Of a stretch of 64,000 bases of DNA, positions 5,157 through 12,160 are shown piece after piece. Every line of letters begins with the position of its first letter. Positions within the stretch are counted from its first letter, which is position 1. The notes below the pieces were generated by a model that had not been told where the DNA came from, did no database searches, and worked only from the letters and a program-made list of their open reading frames with translations. Position numbers and translations under genes: made by a program. Source of the DNA: an uncultured Thermotogae bacterium (lineage in GTDB: Bacteria > Bipolaricaulota > Bipolaricaulia > UBA7950 > UBA9294); assembly GCA_964354815.1 (NCBI GenBank), contig CAYHBG010000001.1, positions 10,803 through 74,802 of the forward strand, given 5' to 3'.

Positions 5157-5513
5157 ATGACGACCTCCATCCCGAAGAGAGTGAGGGAGGCTGTCCTCCG
5201 ACGTGACGGCTATCGCTGCATCGCCCCCCAGATCGACGGCCTCTCCGGCTGGTGCCGTGATGCGTGGGGCAACGTCATCACCCATTGGCCCGGCAGGGAC
5301 ACAGGGCCCGTGTACCTCCAGATGTCGCACACCAAGGAGCAGGGCGAGCTGGCGATGAGCCAGAAGGCGGACTCCGACATCGAGCACCTCGTCACCCTCT
5401 GCCCGTTCCACCACACCGGCACCACCGCCGGCTCTAACTGGGAGGCCGTGAACCGGAACAGGATCAGGCACTTCCTCGACGACCTCTACCGCCCTTCGAG
5501 GAGAAGGCCGTGA
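5157..5513 (+). CDS. HNH endonuclease
   Basis: C-x-x-C...H-x-x-x...C-P-F-H-H arrangement (RDGYRCIAP...HTKEQG...HLVTLCPFHH) in 118 aa. Confidence 0.7.
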   Translation: MTTSIPKRVREAVLRRDGYRCIAPQIDGLSGWCRDAWGNVITHWPGRDTGPVYLQMSHTKEQGELAMSQKADSDIEHLVTLCPFHHTGTTAGSNWEAVNRNRIRHFLDDLYRPSRRRP

Positions 5514-5671: not shown

Positions 5672-6481
5672 ATGGCCGTCTACAGGCCAGAGTTCGTCAA
5701 GCAATGGAACGACCCCACCACCACCCTCGACTGGAAGAACTGCACGATGGCAGCCGGGGCGATGGCGCTGGACTTCGACACCCTGGGTCACGTCCAGGTG
5801 CTGGGTGGGCAGCTCCGCAGCGTGTCCGGCGACAAGATCGGAGGGACCGGCCTTGGTAGCCCCGGCCTGACGAGGGCCTGGGCCCACTACGGCCAGGAGC
5901 TCCATGTCGAGAGCGGTGACGATTGGGCGGCGGTCATGGCCGCCCTCCGGGCGTACCGGGGCGTCGTCCTCCAGGGCATGTACGGGGCACTTCCCAAGGA
6001 GTACCGCAGCCCTCTCAACAGCCTCTCCTACCGGGGCCCTCACGGCGTCTACCTGACTCCCGAGATCAACGGCTCGGGATCCATCCTCATGGGCGATCCG
6101 CTCAACGGGAAGTTCATCTGGGTTCCGGCGGGCTACCTCCACAACTTCGCGTCCGCCCTCGGAGCTGTCGAGTACCACTCCTCGAGCAAGCTGTTCTTCG
6201 CGACCAGCGACCCCCACAAGCCGGTCGTCACCGACCCGGTGAAGTACGCCCACACCGTGGTCGTGACCGCCGATCCGTACCTGAACATTCGCGAGACCCC
6301 TTCCGCCGGGGCCAAGGACGTGGGCAACCTCAAGAAGGGGGCCAAGATCAAGACGACCTGGCTGCGCCGTCAGGGTGGCCGGTACATCGTCAATGGCACC
6401 ATGCGGACCGACTGGCTCGGCTTCACCCATGACGGTGAGACCGACTGGATCGCTCGCGCCTACACGAAGGTGGTCATCTGA
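5672..6481 (+). CDS. putative papain-like/CHAP-like cysteine peptidase with C-terminal SH3b domain (candidate cell-wall hydrolase)
   Basis: Cys24 (WKNCTMAAGAM) and His ~124 (GPHGVYL) spaced as in Cys-His peptidases; C-terminal YLNIRETPSAGAKDVGNLKKGAKIKTT...GETDWIARAYTKV resembles bacterial SH3b. Confidence 0.4.
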   Translation: MAVYRPEFVKQWNDPTTTLDWKNCTMAAGAMALDFDTLGHVQVLGGQLRSVSGDKIGGTGLGSPGLTRAWAHYGQELHVESGDDWAAVMAALRAYRGVVLQGMYGALPKEYRSPLNSLSYRGPHGVYLTPEINGSGSILMGDPLNGKFIWVPAGYLHNFASALGAVEYHSSSKLFFATSDPHKPVVTDPVKYAHTVVVTADPYLNIRETPSAGAKDVGNLKKGAKIKTTWLRRQGGRYIVNGTMRTDWLGFTHDGETDWIARAYTKVVI

Positions 6482-6482
6482 C

Positions 6483-6710
6483 ATGGACGTGACCTGGATC
6501 AAGATCGACTCCTGGCACATTCTCGAGGGGACCTGGGTCGAGGGGGCCGTGACGGTCGCCACCACCCGCTGCGGCATCACGCGCCCCTGGGACGGGACGA
6601 GCCTCGACCGCCTCCCCGGTGGGACCGAGACCTCCTGCGAGAACTGCCTCAAGTACAAGCTGGGCGAGCTCGACGAGCCGCCCAAGAAGAGGGCCCGCAA
6701 GGCCAAGTGA
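6483..6710 (+). CDS. small zinc-ribbon protein with basic tail
   Basis: ATG 6483; TTRCGIT...SCENC (CxxC-type pair); KKRARKAK C-terminus. Confidence 0.4.
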   Translation: MDVTWIKIDSWHILEGTWVEGAVTVATTRCGITRPWDGTSLDRLPGGTETSCENCLKYKLGELDEPPKKRARKAK

Positions 6711-7174
6711 GCTGGAGCTTCGTCATCCCCGGCCAGCCCCTCATGGTAACCTTCCCTGTCATGGACGACATCGGAGAGTGCTACGAGCTGTCTGGCGGGA
6801 GCAGGCGCAAGGGCTACGTTCGGGTCGAGTACAAGTATCGGACCCACTCGGCGCACCGGATCGCTTGGATGGCGGTGAACGGGCCGATCCCCGAGAAGGG
6901 GGAGATCCTTCATCGCTGCGACAACCGCTCGTGCATCAGGGCATCGCATCTCTACCTCGGAACGAACGAGGAGAACGTCCGTGATCGGGTCATGCGGCTG
7001 CGGTCATGGCACAAGCTGACCGACGAGGAGGTGCTCGAGATCCGCGCCAAGTACAGCGCCTGGGGAAGGGGCGGGATGACGGGTCGTCAGCTCGCCGCCC
7101 AGTACGGCGTGAGCAAGGCCCAGATCTCGCGCATCGTCACCGGCCAGCGTCGAAAGGACATCGGGGCTGGCTGA
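6707..7174 (+). CDS. HNH homing endonuclease (HNH_3/NUMOD-like) with C-terminal HTH
   Basis: HRIAWMAVNGPIP...HRCDNRSCIRASHLYLGTNEEN signature; C-terminal QLAAQYGVSKAQISRIV helix-turn-helix; the first 11 codons (VSWSFVIPGQP) are a copy of the rusA 5' end. Confidence 0.7.
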   Translation: MSWSFVIPGQPLMVTFPVMDDIGECYELSGGSRRKGYVRVEYKYRTHSAHRIAWMAVNGPIPEKGEILHRCDNRSCIRASHLYLGTNEENVRDRVMRLRSWHKLTDEEVLEIRAKYSAWGRGGMTGRQLAAQYGVSKAQISRIVTGQRRKDIGAG

Positions 7175-7212
7175 TGGGATGGAGCTTCGTCATCCCCGGC
7201 CAGCCCCCGTAG
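6707..7212 (+). mobile_element. free-standing HNH endonuclease insertion flanked by 28-bp direct repeats (TGGAGCTTCGTCATCCCCGGCCAGCCCC at ~6713-6740 and ~7180-7207)
   Basis: Identical 28-nt repeat before and after the HNH ORF, each encoding the RusA-like N-terminus WSFVIPGQP. Confidence 0.55.
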
Positions 7213-7557
7213 CCGTCGGGCAACCACGCCTACAAGATTGGCAAGGGCTACCGGAGGGGCGGCATCAGCTACCCCAGGATCATCAAGACGACCGAGGCGG
7301 AGGCGTACCAGCAGGGCGTGGCCCTGATTGTGCGCTCCGCCAGGCCCAGCGGCTGGTACTGGGGGCCGGGGCAGATGGTGGTGTGCGAGTACAGCTTCTT
7401 CCTCTGGGACGACGCCGACTGCACCAACCTCATCAAGGTCATCGAGGACGGGATCTTCCCGGCGCTCGACATCAACGACTCGTGGGCGCTGCCGCGAGCC
7501 ATCAGCAAGGAGATCGTGCCGAAGGCCTCGGCGCGAGTGGAGGTCACCATCAGGTGA
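7174..7557 (+). pseudogene. rusA: RusA-family Holliday junction resolvase gene interrupted by an in-frame TAG after codon 12
   Basis: MGWSFVIPGQPP-TAG(7210-7212)-PSGNHAYKIGKGYRRGG...WDDADCTNLIKVIEDG aligns with E. coli RusA ITLPWPPSNNRYYR...RDLDNLQK catalytic core; same frame before and after the amber; TAG is an ordinary stop elsewhere in this window. Confidence 0.5.
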
Positions 7558-7630
7558 GACTCATCAAGGACTTCATCGCGTCCGTGGGGATGGTGGGCTG
7601 CTCGCCCACGCCGGCCCCCAGCGCCAACCC

Positions 7631-8212
7631 GTGATCATCGAGCTCGACGAGGCGCAGATGGAGGACGCCAAGACCGTCGCCCGTCGGGTGTACGGCAAGT
7701 ACCACCAGGACGGAGGGCCCAAGACCCGCTACAGCCACGGCCAGATCATGGACATGCGGTACACCCTCAACGGGTTCTGCGCCGAGCTCGCCCTGTCCAT
7801 CCACCTGGGCGAGCGTTGGAACCGTGGCGACTCCAGCAAGGCCGACGTGGGCCGGATCCACGAGGCCCGCTGGACGAGCAAGTACCCACCCGAGCTGCGG
7901 ATCTACGACCCAGCCGACAAGAAGTCGCCCGACTACCAGAAGGCCCAGCGCCGTTTCTGGTTGCTGACCGGCGAGCCTCCGTCCCTCACCCTGCACGGGG
8001 GGACATCCGGCCAGGACATCATCGAACGCGGCGAGCGCCGCGTCAGCCGGGAGGGGATGGCGAGCTGGTTCCTGTCGCTCGAGGCCCTCGAGGGACACCG
8101 ACATGGCTGGGCCAAGGACGAGTCCGGCATCTGGGCCTGCGCTAGCTGCCTCGAGCACTTCGTGGGCCAGGTCCCGGTGGATGTGCTACACCCCGACGGG
8201 AGACAGGCATGA
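7631..8212 (+). CDS. hypothetical protein (193 aa)
   Basis: GTG 7631 overlapping the stop of a 26-codon upstream mini-ORF; coding-like composition; no motif recognised. Confidence 0.5.
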   Translation: MIIELDEAQMEDAKTVARRVYGKYHQDGGPKTRYSHGQIMDMRYTLNGFCAELALSIHLGERWNRGDSSKADVGRIHEARWTSKYPPELRIYDPADKKSPDYQKAQRRFWLLTGEPPSLTLHGGTSGQDIIERGERRVSREGMASWFLSLEALEGHRHGWAKDESGIWACASCLEHFVGQVPVDVLHPDGRQA

Positions 8213-8604
8213 CGGACGAGCTCCACTTCGAGGCGGAGACGAATGAACCGCTCGAGCCGCTCGACACGGGCGAGCCGGGGTTCCGTCTGGCTGGCCTGCG
8301 GGAGGTATCCGGCACGTTCTCCGGCCCCCTCCTGGACGGAGCCCTGCTTGCCATCAACCAGCCGCCGGGGCCCATCGAGCTCTACCTGTACGGGCCGGAC
8401 CCGGAGCTCCCGTGGTGGAAGCATTGGTTCTACCGGATCCGCGAGCGGGTCAGGGGCACGCCGTACCCGACCATCTGCCTCGCCCACGGGCCGGCGATCA
8501 TGGACTTCGAGGAGCCCGTCGAGGACGGTGACGACATCGTGTACGCCGGCACGTTCACCAAGGCCGGCGTCTGGAAGTTCAACGACAGGGAGGTCAACTC
8601 GTGA
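8209..8604 (+). CDS. hypothetical protein (131 aa)
   Basis: ATGA overlap with the upstream stop; acidic N-terminus. Confidence 0.5.
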   Translation: MTDELHFEAETNEPLEPLDTGEPGFRLAGLREVSGTFSGPLLDGALLAINQPPGPIELYLYGPDPELPWWKHWFYRIRERVRGTPYPTICLAHGPAIMDFEEPVEDGDDIVYAGTFTKAGVWKFNDREVNS

Positions 8605-10561: not shown

Positions 10562-12160
10562 ATGGGCAAGCTCGCCACGCGGCCGAAGGCCGCACCGAAG
10601 GCCGCGATCCGCTCCACGAAGGGGCGGAAGCCGGACACCAAGACCTTCAACTCTGGTGCCGGGTTCAGCCGCGAGCCGAAGTCGGAGCTGTACCTCCTGG
10701 CCGTGACGAACATGGTCAGCGAGAAGACGTTCTACGAGTCCGCCGAGACTCGTGACCGCCGGTTCAACGACCTCATCCGCCAAGTGGCGCTCGAGGATCC
10801 CGACTGGCTGGCGCGGTTCGTGCCGTACCTCCGCGACACCATGAACATGCGGACGGCCTCCATCGTGATGGCGGCCGAGACGGTCCACGCGAAGCTGACC
10901 AAGCCGGTCCCCGCGTCCACGATCAAGAACCGGACGATCATCGACTCCGCCATCAAGCGGGCCGACGAGCCGGCGGAGATGCTGGGCTACTGGTTCAGCG
11001 AGTGGGGCAAGAACCTCCCGCAGCCGGTGAAGCGCGGCGTGGCCGACGCGGTCCAGCGCCTGTATGGCGAGCGCAGCCTCATCAAGTACGACGGCGGCGA
11101 CAAGGCCATCCGGTTCGCGGATGTGATCGACCTCGTCCACCCGGAGGCGAAGGCCCCCTGGCAGTCGGCCCTGTTCAAGTACGCCCTCGATGACCGCCAC
11201 AAGCGGGAGAACCCGCTGCCCGGCGACCTCGCCATGATCGGTCTCAACCGTCTGGCGATGGGCCTCGGTGACGTTGCGTTCCGGGAGGCGTTCGGACCCT
11301 CGTTCGTGGAGCACGCCGGCCTCACCTGGGAGCAGGCGAGCTCGAAGTACGGCAAGCTCGACGCCCGGTTCTGGGAGGCGATGATCCCCTCGATGGGCAT
11401 CTTCGCCATCGTGCGGAACCTCCGCAACTTCGACGACGCGAAGATCAGCAACGCCGCCCAGGACCTGGTGCGGGCCAAGCTGACCGATGCCGAGACCATC
11501 GCCAAGAGCCGGATGTTCCCGCTCCGCTTCTTCACCGCCTTCCTGGCGACGAAGACGCTGACCTACGCCCGCGAGCTCGAGACCGCCATCGACCTGTCGC
11601 TGGCGAACGTGCCCAGCCTCAAGGGCAAGACGCTGATCCTCGTGGACATCAGCCGGTCGATGGACTGGGCGCTGTCCGCGAAGAGCGACGTGGTCCGGCT
11701 GGCCCCGGCCAGCATCTTCGGCGCGGCGCTCGCGGTCCGGGCGGAGAAGCCGACCCTCGTCGCCTTCACCGACACGAGCGTGGAGATCCACGTCCGCAAG
11801 GGCCAGAGCATCCTGCTCGCGACCAAGGAGATCGCGAACGCCCTGCCCCATCAGGGCACCCAGACCTTCCAGGCGGTGAAGCGCCACTTCAACAGTCACG
11901 ACCGCGTGATCATCATCACCGACGAGCAGGCTGACCCCTCGACGGCCTGGGGCTTCGGGGTGCGGGACACGTCCGACGTGGACCCGTCCGCGATCCTGCC
12001 CGAGACGGTGCCGCTGTTCACCTTCAACGTCGCGGGCTATGCCGCCGGCCACGCGCCGTCGGGGAAGCGCAACCGCTACGCCTTCGGCGGGCTGAACGAC
12101 TCCGCCTTCACCGCCATCGAGCTCCTCGAGAAGGGGCGCGACCAGACCTGGCCCTTCTGA
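10562..12160 (+). CDS. rsr: Ro60-related protein (Rsr): TROVE domain plus C-terminal von Willebrand A domain
   Basis: 532 aa; alpha-helical N-terminal region (FYESAETRDRRFNDLIRQVALEDPDWLARFVPYLRDTMNMRTASIV) typical of TROVE; vWA MIDAS motif LILVDISRSMDW about aa 357; Ro60 orthologs are typically adjacent to Y RNA genes. Confidence 0.7.
   Translation: MGKLATRPKAAPKAAIRSTKGRKPDTKTFNSGAGFSREPKSELYLLAVTNMVSEKTFYESAETRDRRFNDLIRQVALEDPDWLARFVPYLRDTMNMRTASIVMAAETVHAKLTKPVPASTIKNRTIIDSAIKRADEPAEMLGYWFSEWGKNLPQPVKRGVADAVQRLYGERSLIKYDGGDKAIRFADVIDLVHPEAKAPWQSALFKYALDDRHKRENPLPGDLAMIGLNRLAMGLGDVAFREAFGPSFVEHAGLTWEQASSKYGKLDARFWEAMIPSMGIFAIVRNLRNFDDAKISNAAQDLVRAKLTDAETIAKSRMFPLRFFTAFLATKTLTYARELETAIDLSLANVPSLKGKTLILVDISRSMDWALSAKSDVVRLAPASIFGAALAVRAEKPTLVAFTDTSVEIHVRKGQSILLATKEIANALPHQGTQTFQAVKRHFNSHDRVIIITDEQADPSTAWGFGVRDTSDVDPSAILPETVPLFTFNVAGYAAGHAPSGKRNRYAFGGLNDSAFTAIELLEKGRDQTWPF

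What the first reader, a model, noticed from the sequence alone, without database searches (positions are those of the whole stretch)
6707..7557. rusA-like resolvase gene disrupted: HNH endonuclease inserted with 28-bp target duplication plus an in-frame amber codon
The 28-nt sequence encoding WSFVIPGQP occurs at the start of the HNH ORF (about 6713-6740) and again right after it (about 7180-7207). In the second copy it opens a RusA-like reading frame, and the downstream catalytic core WDDADCTNLIKVIEDG is intact. The frame is broken by TAG at 7210-7212 after codon 12. The HNH gene appears to have hijacked the rusA translation start. rusA is either a fresh pseudogene, is rescued by reinitiation or readthrough, or this is a sequencing error. 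The locus captures a homing-endonuclease invasion in progress.
Basis: seen in the sequence. Interest (0 to 1): 0.7.

Follow-up and report, generated by a model that had tools for sequence, protein, structure and literature searches.

The report
Homing-endonuclease cassette with candidate stop-codon hop
A mobile HNH endonuclease gene sits inside a phage RusA resolvase gene, and it carries a replacement gene start followed by a conserved 6-base spacer containing a stop codon (CCG TAG CCG) that the ribosome may skip; if so, this would be a miniature, so far undescribed relative of the phage T4 gene 60 bypass.

Summary
There is a 28-nt exact repeat (31/33) at 6708-6740 and 7175-7207. An HNH_3 gene lies between the copies. 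An in-frame TAG sits at 7210-7212 in a RusA-fold gene.

The TAG is not a sequencing error: assemblies of two separate runs are 100% identical to the window. It is also not a point mutation. Relative to 28 aligned intact homologues (of 76 found), the window has a 6-nt insertion, CCG TAG.

Six other metagenomic loci carry related HNH genes (54-65% aa identity, synonymous sites saturated where measured) at the same rusA position. All have the same layout: resident rusA codons 1-11, HNH, a new start codon, a RusA-like N-terminal leader ending PGQPP. In five of the six a stop codon (TAG x4, TAA x1) follows, then an intact rusA remainder. Flanking proline codons match in the three 6-nt loci (CCG/CCG twice, CCA/CCA once).

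The layout parallels the T4 MobA/gene 60 cassette. My best reading (about 0.5) is that the spacer protects against self-cleavage and is skipped by a peptidyl-tRNAPro stop-hop. The main rival (about 0.3) is that rusA is simply inactivated. Two loci with a 5-nt spacer and one with a 9-nt spacer lack a perfectly matched landing codon. There are no expression data.

The parts
6483..6710 (+). Upstream 75-aa gene. Its TGA (6708-6710) overlaps the resident rusA start GTG at 6707. This is the ancestral gene-to-rusA junction.
   Evidence: It aligns with the gene upstream of intact rusA in L001 (...AAGAGGNCCCGCAAGGCNAAGTGAGCTGG).
6707..6739 (+). Copy 1: resident rusA codons 1-11 (GTG AGC TGG AGC TTC GTC ATC CCC GGC CAG CCC). 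The following CT(C) probably remains from a resident Leu-12 codon, as in L002/L003. In the window copy 1 is fused in frame to the HNH ORF.
   Evidence: All six loci with data break at the same point, after CAGCCN.
6740..7212 (+). Inserted cassette, about 473 nt (boundaries ambiguous by 1-2 nt): left junction, HNH gene, leader and stop-containing spacer.
   Evidence: Absent from L001, L002 and L003. A related cassette is defined by the with/without pair L254 versus L003, which are 100% identical up to ...CCCGGCCAGCCC.
6743..7174 (+). HNH_3 endonuclease with a C-terminal HTH-like DNA-binding region. It is 143 aa as in the public record (P0077). Alternative starts are GTG 6707 (155 aa, fused to copy 1) and ATG 6761 (137 aa, aligned with the start used in relatives). 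The stop is TGA at 7172-7174.
   Evidence: PF13392 at 9.9e-16, HTH_3 weak. H, N, C and D motif columns are invariant in 17 homologues. dN/dS among cassette HNH genes is 0.14-0.34.
7174..7209 (+). Leader (copy 2): a cassette-borne replacement start (ATG overlapping the HNH stop) plus 11 codons, MGWSFVIPGQPP. This corresponds to RusA beta-strand 1 and the GQP motif.
   Evidence: In the AF2 model of intact homologue P0001, strand 1 is residues 3-8. A start codon and an open leader are present in all 7 loci.
7207..7215 (+). Candidate stop-hop site CCG TAG CCG: take-off Pro codon 7207-7209, in-frame amber 7210-7212, matched landing Pro codon 7213-7215. Six of these nine bases are extra relative to every intact homologue aligned.
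   Evidence: The same site occurs in L010 (CCG TAG CCG) and L011 (CCA TAG CCA).
7213..7557 (+). Remainder of rusA: 114 codons, PSGNHAYK...RVEVTIR, plus TGA. It is 89% aa identical to intact P0001, with no frameshift or further stop.
   Evidence: RusA fold of the family.

Best explanation
Window 6740-7212 is a mobile homing-endonuclease cassette lodged in the phage's RusA Holliday-junction resolvase gene, after codon 11 (the CAG CCC | CCG TCG motif, PGQP|PS).

Shown:
- The cassette consists of a short left junction, a selectively maintained HNH_3 + HTH endonuclease gene, a new start codon coupled to the HNH stop, a replacement RusA N-terminus ('leader', MGWSFVIPGQPP), and a 6-nt spacer that places a TAG between two CCG proline codons.
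- The same architecture recurs in six other, anciently diverged loci. Five of them keep a stop at exactly this point. One (L254) has no stop and instead carries a sequence-divergent, uninterrupted rusA.

Inferred:
1. The endonuclease cleaves spacer-less rusA at or near the PGQPPS.N-coding motif and spreads by double-strand-break repair.
2. Because the cassette rebuilds the 5' end of rusA, it also rebuilds its own target. The spacer separates the two half-sites and protects the carrier genome from self-cleavage.
3. Two extra residues in the invariantly spaced GQP-x-S-x-N motif would probably be harmful, so the spacer is not translated.
4. Ribosomes starting at ATG 7174 pause with peptidyl-tRNAPro on CCG and UAG-C in the A site. 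Pro-Pro-stop is a very slow termination context.
5. The tRNA unpairs and re-pairs with the matched CCG 6 nt downstream, and decoding resumes at TCG.
6. The product is a 125-aa RusA, MGWSFVIPGQPPSGNHAYK..., colinear with its homologues. This is a 'stop-hop', in which 9 nt encode one amino acid.

The hop need not be efficient, because little RusA is needed (from memory of the E. coli rus literature).
For: 1. The insertion is real and reproducible.

2. The architecture is conserved in 7 loci whose HNH proteins are 54-65% identical to the window's. For the five loci whose HNH ORF was picked correctly (window, L010, L011, L012, L256), dS is 1.06-1.97 where it could be computed (saturated beyond calculation for L010-L256) and dN/dS is 0.14-0.34 (L254 and L255 ORFs were mis-picked). 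Site sequences:
- window and L010: CCG TAG CCG
- L011: CCA TAG CCA
- L012: CCG TAG CG TCT
- L256: CCG TAA CG TCT
- L255: CCG TAG TGG CCT
- L254: no stop

3. A stop is kept in 6 of 6 stop-bearing loci, including one TAG-to-TAA change, although 8 of 9 single substitutions of TAG would give a sense codon and neighbouring third positions have changed. This argues for selection to keep a stop.

4. The flanking Pro codons change together in L011. CCA is only 7-8% of Pro codons in L011 and the window.

5. The leader keeps a start codon and an open frame in 7 of 7 loci. Its IPGQPP core shows about 6 synonymous against 1 non-synonymous change among cassettes. L010 and L012 have an identical WTVSIPGQPP peptide with 4 synonymous differences, while their downstream RusA proteins are highly divergent.

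6. The leader encodes beta-strand 1 of a confidently modelled RusA fold: pLDDT 94.8, TM 0.72-0.77 to 1q8r/2h8c.

7. The rusA remainder after the stop is a full-length open frame in the five loci where it can be read to its end (L010 is cut by the contig end). The window's rusA has dN/dS 0.27-0.34 against intact homologues, the same as intact versus intact (0.28-0.36). Its terminal-branch dN (0.02-0.05) is not higher than its partner's with L003 or L001 as outgroup; with L004 as outgroup it came out higher (0.067 vs 0.001).

8. The hop product has the exact length and spacing of the 123-125-aa homologues.

9. There is a precedent. MobA elements combine an HNH endonuclease, an insert-encoded N-terminal extension with a target-homologous region, an in-phase stop after the take-off codon, matched take-off and landing codons, and an insert that ends at the landing codon. 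The bypass cassette protects against self-nicking (10.1101/2022.08.31.505936). Stop-hops with matched codons flanking a stop work in synthetic constructs (PMC5009743). A Pro codon before a stop makes termination especially slow and shift-prone (PMC3082878).

10. L254 versus L003 shows recent mobility with a clean break at the same site.
Against: - There is no expression, proteomic or cleavage evidence. Everything is comparative and rests on seven loci from metagenomes.
- Two loci (L012, L256) have a 5-nt spacer, so RusA continues in the -1/+2 frame. A +5 hop would land on GCG or ACG (2 of 3 pairs), or a -1 slip would be needed. L255 has a 9-nt spacer with CCG...CCT. One simple matched-codon rule therefore does not cover all loci.
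- No conserved RNA structure or internal Shine-Dalgarno sequence was found at the site.
- Synthetic stop-hops are inefficient (from memory).
- Cassette and rusA histories are not congruent: the leader is similar while the downstream RusA is divergent. Individual insertions may therefore be young, and intact downstream ORFs with low dN/dS could predate the insertion.
- Leaders resemble their own copy 1, so some leader 'conservation' could come from re-copying of resident sequence.
- A possible second junction nuclease (5157-5513, a motif read by eye and not tested; Endonuclease_7 in relative L001) could make RusA dispensable.
Confidence: 0.5

Rival explanations
1. Selfish invasion with loss of function. 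The HNH cassette inactivates rusA, and the leader plus stop is a non-functional relic of how the element first formed. RusA is not made, and the phage tolerates this, for example because another junction-resolving nuclease is present.
For: - An in-frame stop after codon 12, with no nearby restart codon in the window.
- Two of six loci are also out of frame after the stop, and one has an unmatched 9-nt spacer.
- The cassette moves between very different rusA genes, so each insertion could be recent and the downstream ORF not yet decayed.
- Relative L001 carries an Endonuclease_7 gene in the same module. The window has a possible HNH/EndoVII-like ORF at 5157-5513 (motif read by eye, not tested).
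Against: - A neutral leader and stop should have decayed at the divergence seen among the measured HNH genes (dS above 1). Instead the start codon, the open frame, the RusA-like peptide (mostly synonymous changes) and a stop codon are all retained.
- L011 has a paired CCA/CCA change.
- None of the five downstream rusA remainders that can be read to the end shows any lesion.
- The window branch shows no clear excess of non-synonymous change.
- By my reasoning, a leader homologous to the left side of the break should lower homing efficiency through premature annealing. Its retention therefore suggests a benefit to the host.
- L254 shows that the same design yields an uninterrupted rusA.
Confidence: 0.3
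2. Other recoding or rescue at the same site. This could be stop-codon readthrough (giving QPP-X-PS in the in-frame loci), a -1 P-site slip on C CCC CCG (productive only in the 5-nt loci), or termination followed by reinitiation that yields an N-terminally truncated RusA.
For: - Pro-stop-C is a slow, leaky termination context (PMC3082878).
- In L012 and L256 a -1 slip from CCG to CCC would join the leader and RusA, adding two residues.
- L010 and L255 have a GTG two or three codons after the stop, and L256 has an ATG five codons into the RusA frame.
Against: - Readthrough cannot serve the out-of-frame loci. It would also add 2-3 residues to a motif whose spacing is invariant in the 28 intact sequences of alignment A1 and the 39 intact sequences of A4.
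- No suppressor tRNA was found in the 64 kb window. TAG is a common genuine stop there, it terminates the HNH gene of L255, and L256 uses TAA at the site.
- Reinitiation in the window would start at 7318 at the earliest and would lose strand 1 and the invariant S-x-N-H motif.
- No single one of these mechanisms fits all loci.
Confidence: 0.12
3. RNA- or DNA-level removal, or an artefact. Either the ~473-nt insert is a self-splicing intron, or it is excised by recombination between the repeats, or the TAG is an assembly or sequencing error.
For: The insert is flanked by direct repeats and ends in G (TAG). HNH genes often reside in group I introns (general knowledge).
Against: - No Rfam intron or other RNA family matched, even at E up to 10.
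- The HNH ORF fills 432 of 473 nt, which leaves no room for a ribozyme core.
- The 5' boundary does not follow a U in the frame-preserving register.
- Recombination between the repeats would retain the TAG (sequence logic).
- Two independent runs and other projects show the same spacer.
Confidence: 0.03

Closest known systems
Phage T4 MobA / gene 60 mobile cassette (HNH homing endonuclease plus 50-nt translational bypass; Bonocora et al. 2011, from memory; Manning & Atkins 2022, bioRxiv 10.1101/2022.08.31.505936)
   Same: - An HNH-family homing endonuclease is inserted inside a DNA-metabolism gene.
- The insert supplies a new start and an N-terminal extension that contains a region homologous to the target (homR).
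- That extension overlaps the endonuclease ORF.
[quoted passage not shown]
- The insert ends at or just after the landing codon.
- The homologous region is closer to the local parental gene than to other clades.
- The spacer lies in a highly conserved protein motif. It is proposed there (and shown for MobA) to block self-cleavage.
(searches compared)
   Different: - The untranslated gap is 3 nt (5-9 nt inserted) rather than 50 nt.
- No take-off stem-loop, internal SD or long nascent-peptide signal is evident.
- The take-off tRNA is Pro, not Gly or Asp.
- The target is rusA, not topoisomerase.
- The target's 5' end is duplicated, rather than the gene being split into two functional halves.
- The endonuclease is a small HNH_3 + HTH protein (137-155 aa against about 270 aa). 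Its homology to MobA was not tested.
- The host phages are high-GC (66%).
- Bypass has not been demonstrated here.
Synthetic 'stop-hops' in E. coli (Weiss et al. 1987, as described in Atkins et al. 2016, PMC5009743)
   Same: Matched codons flank a stop codon, so that 9 nt would specify one amino acid. A slow-to-decode A-site stop lets the P-site peptidyl-tRNA unpair and re-pair. CCG UAG CCG and CCA UAG CCA fit this definition exactly.
   Different: Those were engineered, low-efficiency events. The review states that no natural occurrences of in-frame stop hopping are known. Here the site is natural, conserved, and tied to a mobile element.
Free-standing homing endonucleases with intronless homing and rebuilt termini (for example MobE splitting nrdA in phage Aeh1; Seg and Mob genes of T-even phages)
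   Same: - The endonuclease gene lies next to or inside its target.
- It spreads by double-strand-break repair with co-conversion of flanking markers.
- The carrier allele is made resistant by sequence change, as in L254, where a divergent rusA replaces the resident one.
- The insert adds new termini to keep the host gene working.
   Different: In six of the seven loci, resistance appears to come from a stop-containing spacer inside the coding sequence rather than from synonymous or divergent target sequence.
RusA Holliday-junction resolvase (PF05866; E. coli RusA, PDB 1Q8R/2H8C)
   Same: - The fold matches (TM 0.72-0.77, probability 1.00).
- 38 of 39 homologues hit PF05866.
- The length is about 120 aa.
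- An acidic/Lys motif D-x-D..N..K...D is invariant.
   Different: This is a divergent subfamily. The window protein scores 21.8 bits, just under the 22.8 cut-off. A sequence profile finds no PDB RusA. There is no member among cultured phages in INPHARED.
Mitochondrial byp elements of Magnusiomyces capitatus (Lang et al. 2014, cited)
   Same: Short mobile inserts inside coding sequences are rendered harmless by translational bypass, with tolerance for imperfect landing-codon matches.
   Different: Byp elements are 27-55 nt, have no associated endonuclease, use a hungry sense codon, and occur in a mitochondrial translation system.

Membership tests
RusA resolvase family (PF05866) | Significant match to the family profile | tested here: inconclusive
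   The window protein (stop replaced by X) scores 21.8 bits against a cut-off of 22.8, covering profile positions 3-124. However, 38 of 39 close homologues match, with a best E-value of 1.3e-8.
RusA resolvase family (PF05866) | RusA alpha/beta fold | tested here: met
   The AF2 model of P0001 (89% identical to the window protein) has pLDDT 94.8. The top seven Foldseek PDB hits are all E. coli RusA (1q8r, 2h8e, 2h8c), with TM 0.67-0.77 and E-values down to 7.6e-8.
RusA resolvase family (PF05866) | Catalytic acidic residues and Lys (E. coli D70, D72, K76, D91; from memory) | tested here: inconclusive
   D82, N85, K88, D92 and D102 (window numbering) are invariant in alignment A1, and the window keeps them. 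Their one-to-one mapping to the E. coli residues was not computed.
HNH_3 homing endonuclease | HNH_3 domain with catalytic His/Asn and Cys/His metal ligands | tested here: met
   PF13392 at 57.5 bits (cut-off 24.8). H69, C71, D72, N73, C76, H81 and N90 are invariant in 17 homologues. dN/dS is 0.14-0.34.
HNH_3 homing endonuclease | Presence/absence polymorphism at one site in otherwise near-identical genomes (mobility) | tested here: met
   L254 (with cassette) and L003 (without) are 100% identical up to ...CCCGGCCAGCCC and 98% identical again from the last 7 rusA codons onward. For the window's own element, HNH-less relatives are more distant, at 77-93% nt identity.
HNH_3 homing endonuclease | Site-specific cleavage of the insert-less allele and resistance of the carrier allele | not testable with these tools
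   This needs purified protein or co-infection crosses.
MobA/gene-60-type endonuclease plus bypass cassette | Endonuclease inside an ORF, with an insert-encoded new N-terminus containing a target-homologous region | tested here: met
   The leader has its own start codon in 7 of 7 loci and is RusA-like. It is linked to the HNH gene rather than to the downstream rusA type. The feature as defined is described.
MobA/gene-60-type endonuclease plus bypass cassette | In-phase stop (or hungry codon) directly after the take-off codon, conserved across elements | tested here: met
   TAG in five loci and TAA in one, out of six stop-bearing loci, always directly after CAG CCN CCN.
MobA/gene-60-type endonuclease plus bypass cassette | Matched take-off and landing codons | tested here: inconclusive
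   There is an exact match in 3 loci, including the covarying CCA/CCA pair. L255 has CCG/CCT. L012 and L256 have CCG against GCG/ACG, or would need a -1 slip.
MobA/gene-60-type endonuclease plus bypass cassette | 50-nt coding gap with take-off stem-loop, internal SD and nascent-peptide signal; homology to the T4 cassette | tested here: not met
   The gap is 3 nt. No conserved structure was found (z-scores from -2.6 to +1.1, with different folds in each locus). The target gene is different. It is therefore an analogue, not a member.
MobA/gene-60-type endonuclease plus bypass cassette | Demonstrated bypass product | not testable with these tools
   This needs a reporter or mass-spectrometry experiment.
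Group I intron carrying a homing endonuclease | Ribozyme core detectable by covariance model; splice-site rules | tested here: not met
   No Rfam hit at E up to 10 in 6000-8500, and none at gathering score anywhere in the window. The ORF occupies 432 of 473 nt.
Amber suppression or stop-codon reassignment | Suppressor tRNA present, or TAG not used as a terminator | tested here: not met
   No tRNA genes in the window. TAG ends 39 of 74 high-GC3 ORFs on the + strand and ends the HNH gene of L255. L256 has TAA at the site.
Transposon-type target-site duplication | Two copies generated from one target at insertion, hence identical and without independent coding features | tested here: not met
   Copy 2 has its own ATG and a different second codon in the window. 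The two copies differ at 6 synonymous sites in L011 and encode different peptides in L010 and L255.

The most novel reading that the evidence does not exclude
This is the first natural programmed stop-hop: 9 nt (CCG UAG CCG) read as a single proline. It would have evolved as the immunity spacer of an HNH homing-endonuclease cassette, making it a second, independent and minimal solution of the kind so far known only from the T4 gene 60/MobA element. It works in high-GC phages, with peptidyl-tRNAPro at a Pro-Pro-stop pause.
Probability: 0.45. Interest if true: 0.9.

Novelty: new variant of a known kind. Interest (0 to 1): 0.78.

Why it matters
Translational bypassing linked to a homing endonuclease is known from one system, T4 gene 60/MobA. 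That system needs an elaborate 50-nt signal.

The 2016 review by Atkins et al. says shorter counterparts with matched take-off and landing codons were long presumed to exist. It also says no natural in-frame stop-hop is known.

This locus offers a very small, directly testable candidate:
- 9 nt flanked by a 12-codon leader, easy to move into reporters;
- natural variants with 5-, 6- and 9-nt spacers, TAG or TAA, and CCG or CCA;
- a stop-less control (L254).

It could also show how selfish endonucleases insert into conserved motifs without killing the host gene.

In practical terms, it shows that gene callers miss or truncate such genes. Here RusA is uncalled in one assembly's gene calls (L008) and called as a 79-aa fragment in the other (L009).

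If the rival explanation is right, the locus is instead a clean example of a homing endonuclease that repeatedly knocks out a phage resolvase.

Tried and rejected
- Nucleotide search of 6300-7900 against cultured phages found no match. Protein searches found only distant HNH_3 relatives (41% identity or less) and no RusA of this subfamily.
- Rfam searches for introns or other RNAs found nothing. A tRNA scan for suppressors found none.
- Degenerate DNA patterns for the stop site in IMG/VR gave only chance hits on unrelated sequence.
- HNH-profile scans of metagenome, viral and genome collections returned about 240 loci. Only L012 is a close relative next to rusA; L013 is a degraded copy elsewhere.
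- A RusA-profile scan of IMG/VR found 4 intact genes and no spacer-only 'hit-and-run' allele.
- The short RusA calls P0069 and P0073 looked like further interrupted genes. They turned out to be a CTG start and a gene-caller start choice.
- A generic test for flanking repeats around 247 HNH_3 genes found nothing comparable.
- RNA folding around the site found no shared structure.
- A PDB sequence-profile search did not reach RusA; the fold search did.
- My automatic ORF picking failed for the HNH genes of L254 and L255, so their rows in the dN/dS table are invalid and were not used.
Full report
**1. Observation**

The sequence is as described.
- A direct repeat lies at 6708-6740 and 7175-7207 (31/33 identical, 28 nt exact).
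- Between the copies is an ORF (6707-7174) with an HNH_3 domain (PF13392, 57.5 bits) and a weak C-terminal helix-turn-helix.
- The second copy starts with its own ATG (7174), which overlaps the HNH stop (TGATG). It reads MGWSFVIPGQPP, then TAG (7210-7212), and continues in the same frame for 114 codons to TGA at 7555-7557.
- The next in-frame start codon is only at 7318.
- The window is 66% G+C. TAG and TGA are both common terminators and there are no tRNA genes.

**2. The TAG is real and is part of a 6-nt insertion**

Logan assemblies of two different sequencing runs (ERR3804374, ERR3804373) are 100% identical to the window across the locus.

A protein search with the reading-through sequence found 76 homologues, mostly 123-125 aa. 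In the alignment, all 28 intact sequences read IPGQP-[P/L/V/I]-SGNHAYK without gaps. The window has two extra codons, P-stop.

DNA alignment with three relatives that lack any HNH gene (L001, L002, L003) shows two things. The window's copy 1 and its upstream gene form the ancestral junction (upstream gene, GTGA overlap, rusA). About 473 nt (6740-7212) are inserted after CAG CCC.

**3. What the two genes are**

*RusA family.*
- 38 of 39 homologues hit PF05866. The window protein itself is just under the cut-off (21.8 against 22.8 bits).
- An AlphaFold model of P0001 (89% identical to the window protein) has pLDDT 94.8. Its best PDB matches are all E. coli RusA, with TM 0.72-0.77.
- Residues 3-8, which are encoded by the repeated segment, form the first beta-strand.
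- A PDB sequence-profile search alone did not reach RusA.

*HNH protein.* It keeps every invariant motif residue.

**4. The same construction elsewhere**

HNH homologues with 54-65% identity were traced to their contigs. Six loci have the gene at the same place in rusA: L010, L011, L012, L254, L255 and L256.

All have this layout:
- resident rusA codons 1-11, ending CAGCCN;
- a semi-conserved junction (...AACC ATG);
- the HNH gene;
- a start codon overlapping or next to the HNH stop;
- an 11-15-codon RusA-like leader ending (I/V)(P/H)GQPP.

(alignments A5 and A6)

What follows the leader:

| Locus | Site sequence | Spacer | Frame of RusA remainder |
|---|---|---|---|
| window, L010 | CCG TAG CCG TCG | 6 nt | 0 |
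| L011 | CCA TAG CCA TCC | 6 nt | 0 |
| L012 | CCG TAG CG TCT | 5 nt | -1/+2 |
| L256 | CCG TAA CG TCT | 5 nt | -1/+2 |
| L255 | CCG TAG TGG CCT TCG | 9 nt | 0 |
| L254 | no stop; uninterrupted, sequence-divergent 124-aa RusA (TAT GGA CAA CCC GTG AGC TGG AAC) | none | 0 |

Where the contig allows, the RusA remainder after the stop is open to its normal end.

L254 and L003 form a with/without pair. They are 100% identical up to ...CCCGGCCAGCCC. Then about 834 nt (HNH plus a foreign rusA) replace 318 nt. Identity of 98% resumes at the last seven rusA codons. The element is therefore mobile and uses this exact site.

**5. Where the cassette ends**

Leaders are linked to the HNH gene, not to the downstream rusA.
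- L010 and L012 share the leader peptide WTVSIPGQPP (4 synonymous differences), but their RusA remainders are highly divergent.
- The leader of L255 is nearly identical in DNA to the window's, although its RusA is very different.

The window's copy 1 reads CAG CCC CTC, and its nearest intact relatives have Leu (CTG) at position 12. The CC of the 'landing' CCG therefore arrived with the cassette (inference). The right end of the mobile unit is at or just after the stop and landing codon.

**6. Constraint**

*HNH genes.* For the five loci whose HNH ORF was picked correctly (window, L010, L011, L012, L256), dS is 1.06-1.97 where it could be computed. One pair (L010-L256) is saturated beyond calculation. 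dN/dS is 0.14-0.34. These are old, functional endonucleases. The rows for L254 and L255 in that table are invalid because my ORF picking failed.

*Leader and stop.* Despite that divergence:
- every leader keeps a start codon and an open frame;
- its IPGQPP core shows about six synonymous and one non-synonymous change (about 28% synonymous expected by chance; my count);
- all six spacers keep a stop, including one TAG-to-TAA change;
- both proline codons flanking the stop are CCA in L011, where CCA is 8% of Pro codons.

*The window's rusA.* dN/dS is 0.27-0.34 against intact homologues, the same as intact pairs (0.28-0.36). Its terminal-branch dN is 0.02-0.05, not higher than its partner's, when L003 or L001 is the outgroup. 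With L004 as outgroup it came out higher (0.067 against 0.001), probably because of mosaicism at the C-terminus of L002.

*Caveats.* Cassette and rusA phylogenies are not congruent, so individual insertions may be young. Leaders also resemble their own copy 1: 0 to 6 synonymous differences in the window and L011, with 2-3 non-synonymous differences as well in L256 and L254. This hints at occasional re-copying from resident sequence. The same was reported for the homR of MobA elements.

**7. Mechanism proposed**

The architecture parallels the T4 MobA/gene 60 element. That element has:
- an HNH homing endonuclease inside a conserved gene;
- an insert-encoded N-terminal extension with a target-homologous region;
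- an in-phase stop after the take-off codon;
- matched take-off and landing codons;
- an insert that ends at the landing codon;
- a spacer that protects the carrier from self-nicking without inserting residues into a conserved protein region.

I infer the same logic here. Rebuilding the rusA 5' end recreates the target. A 5-9-nt spacer breaks it. The spacer is not translated.

For the window the simplest route is a stop-hop. Peptidyl-tRNAPro on CCG, with UAG-C in the A site, re-pairs with the CCG 6 nt downstream. The product is a 125-aa RusA colinear with its homologues.

Pro before a stop makes termination unusually slow and shift-prone. Stop-hops with matched codons flanking a stop are established in synthetic constructs, but the 2016 review states that no natural case is known.

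The steps that are shown and the steps that are inferred are listed under Best explanation.

**8. Rivals**

- *Loss of function* (about 0.3). This fits the out-of-frame 5-nt loci and the lack of any expression data. It does not explain retention of the leader, its start codon, a stop codon and the paired CCA codons at saturated divergence.
- *Readthrough, a -1 slip or reinitiation* (about 0.12 together). Each fits only some of the loci.
- *Splicing, excision or error* (about 0.03). These are contradicted and by sequence logic.

**9. Open points**

- How, or whether, the 5-nt and 9-nt variants are decoded.
- No conserved RNA structure was found. L010 has an 8-bp hairpin, GUAGCCGU...ACGGCUAC. 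By my reading the window could form the same stem with one mismatch, but the predicted minimum-energy fold does not use it.
- The cleavage site of the enzyme is unknown.
- Only seven loci could be examined.

**10. Verdict**

However, the repeat is a cassette-borne replacement N-terminus, and the amber codon is a conserved, probably functional component rather than an error or a fresh lesion.

The locus is best described as a new, minimal variant of the endonuclease-plus-bypass cassette known from T4, pending experimental proof of the hop.

Noticed in passing
window 10562-12160 (+): A 532-aa ORF sits at the position where relatives L003 and L006 have a TROVE/Ro60-like gene (PF05731). No Y-RNA-like or any other Rfam family reaches gathering score anywhere in the window. 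A phage Ro60-like protein without a recognisable partner RNA may deserve a look.
   Followed up: partly
window 5157-5513 (+); L001 689-1057: A 118-aa ORF with an HNH/Endonuclease VII-like Cys/His motif (read by eye, not tested) lies in the same replication module. Relative L001 has a PF02945 Endonuclease_7 gene there. It could be a second junction-resolving nuclease, which bears on whether RusA is dispensable.
   Followed up: no
window 7558-7633: Relatives L001 and L004 carry a 126-aa Phage_VG64 (PF25682) gene shortly downstream of rusA (directly after it in L001). The window has only a 77-nt gap with a 26-codon ORF at that position, which suggests a deletion next to the cassette.
   Followed up: no
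L254 691-1524 versus L003 618-935: This is a natural with/without pair. HNH plus an almost complete foreign rusA replaced the resident rusA in an otherwise 98-100% identical phage. L254 is from ENA sample ERZ27247977 and L003 from JGI 3300032143. The spacer-less L002 is from ERZ27247974. This suggests ongoing homing in related natural samples.
   Followed up: yes
L003 3347-3766 (-); L254 3936-4174 (-): A second HNH_3 gene lies on the opposite strand about 2.4 kb downstream of rusA in these relatives. These phages carry several free-standing HNH genes.
   Followed up: no
L004 1058-1060; L005 1775-1777: rusA in these contigs begins with CTG (CTCTGAGCTGG) where relatives have GTG. Gene callers therefore report a 90-aa truncated protein (P0069). 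This is either a non-canonical start or a start-codon loss.
   Followed up: partly
L013 2501-2858: This HNH relative has 70% identity in its best segment but carries an internal deletion (it lacks the RDRVMRLRS...EIR segment). It sits in an unrelated context on a contig with opposite-strand genes, so it is probably a decaying copy outside rusA.
   Followed up: no
L045 and L110, 2407 and 2970: A 15-nt exact repeat, GCACAGTGTGATAGG, flanks a distant HNH_3 gene at a spacing of 563 nt. It may be another insertion with duplicated target sequence.
   Followed up: no
window 7172-7212 and the equivalent region in six loci: The HNH C-terminal codons (...GGGGCTGGCTGATG) are conserved at the nucleotide level just upstream of the leader start. 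The base after the stop is C in 5 of 6 loci. These could be a ribosome-binding signal for the leader and a weak termination context; neither was tested.
   Followed up: no
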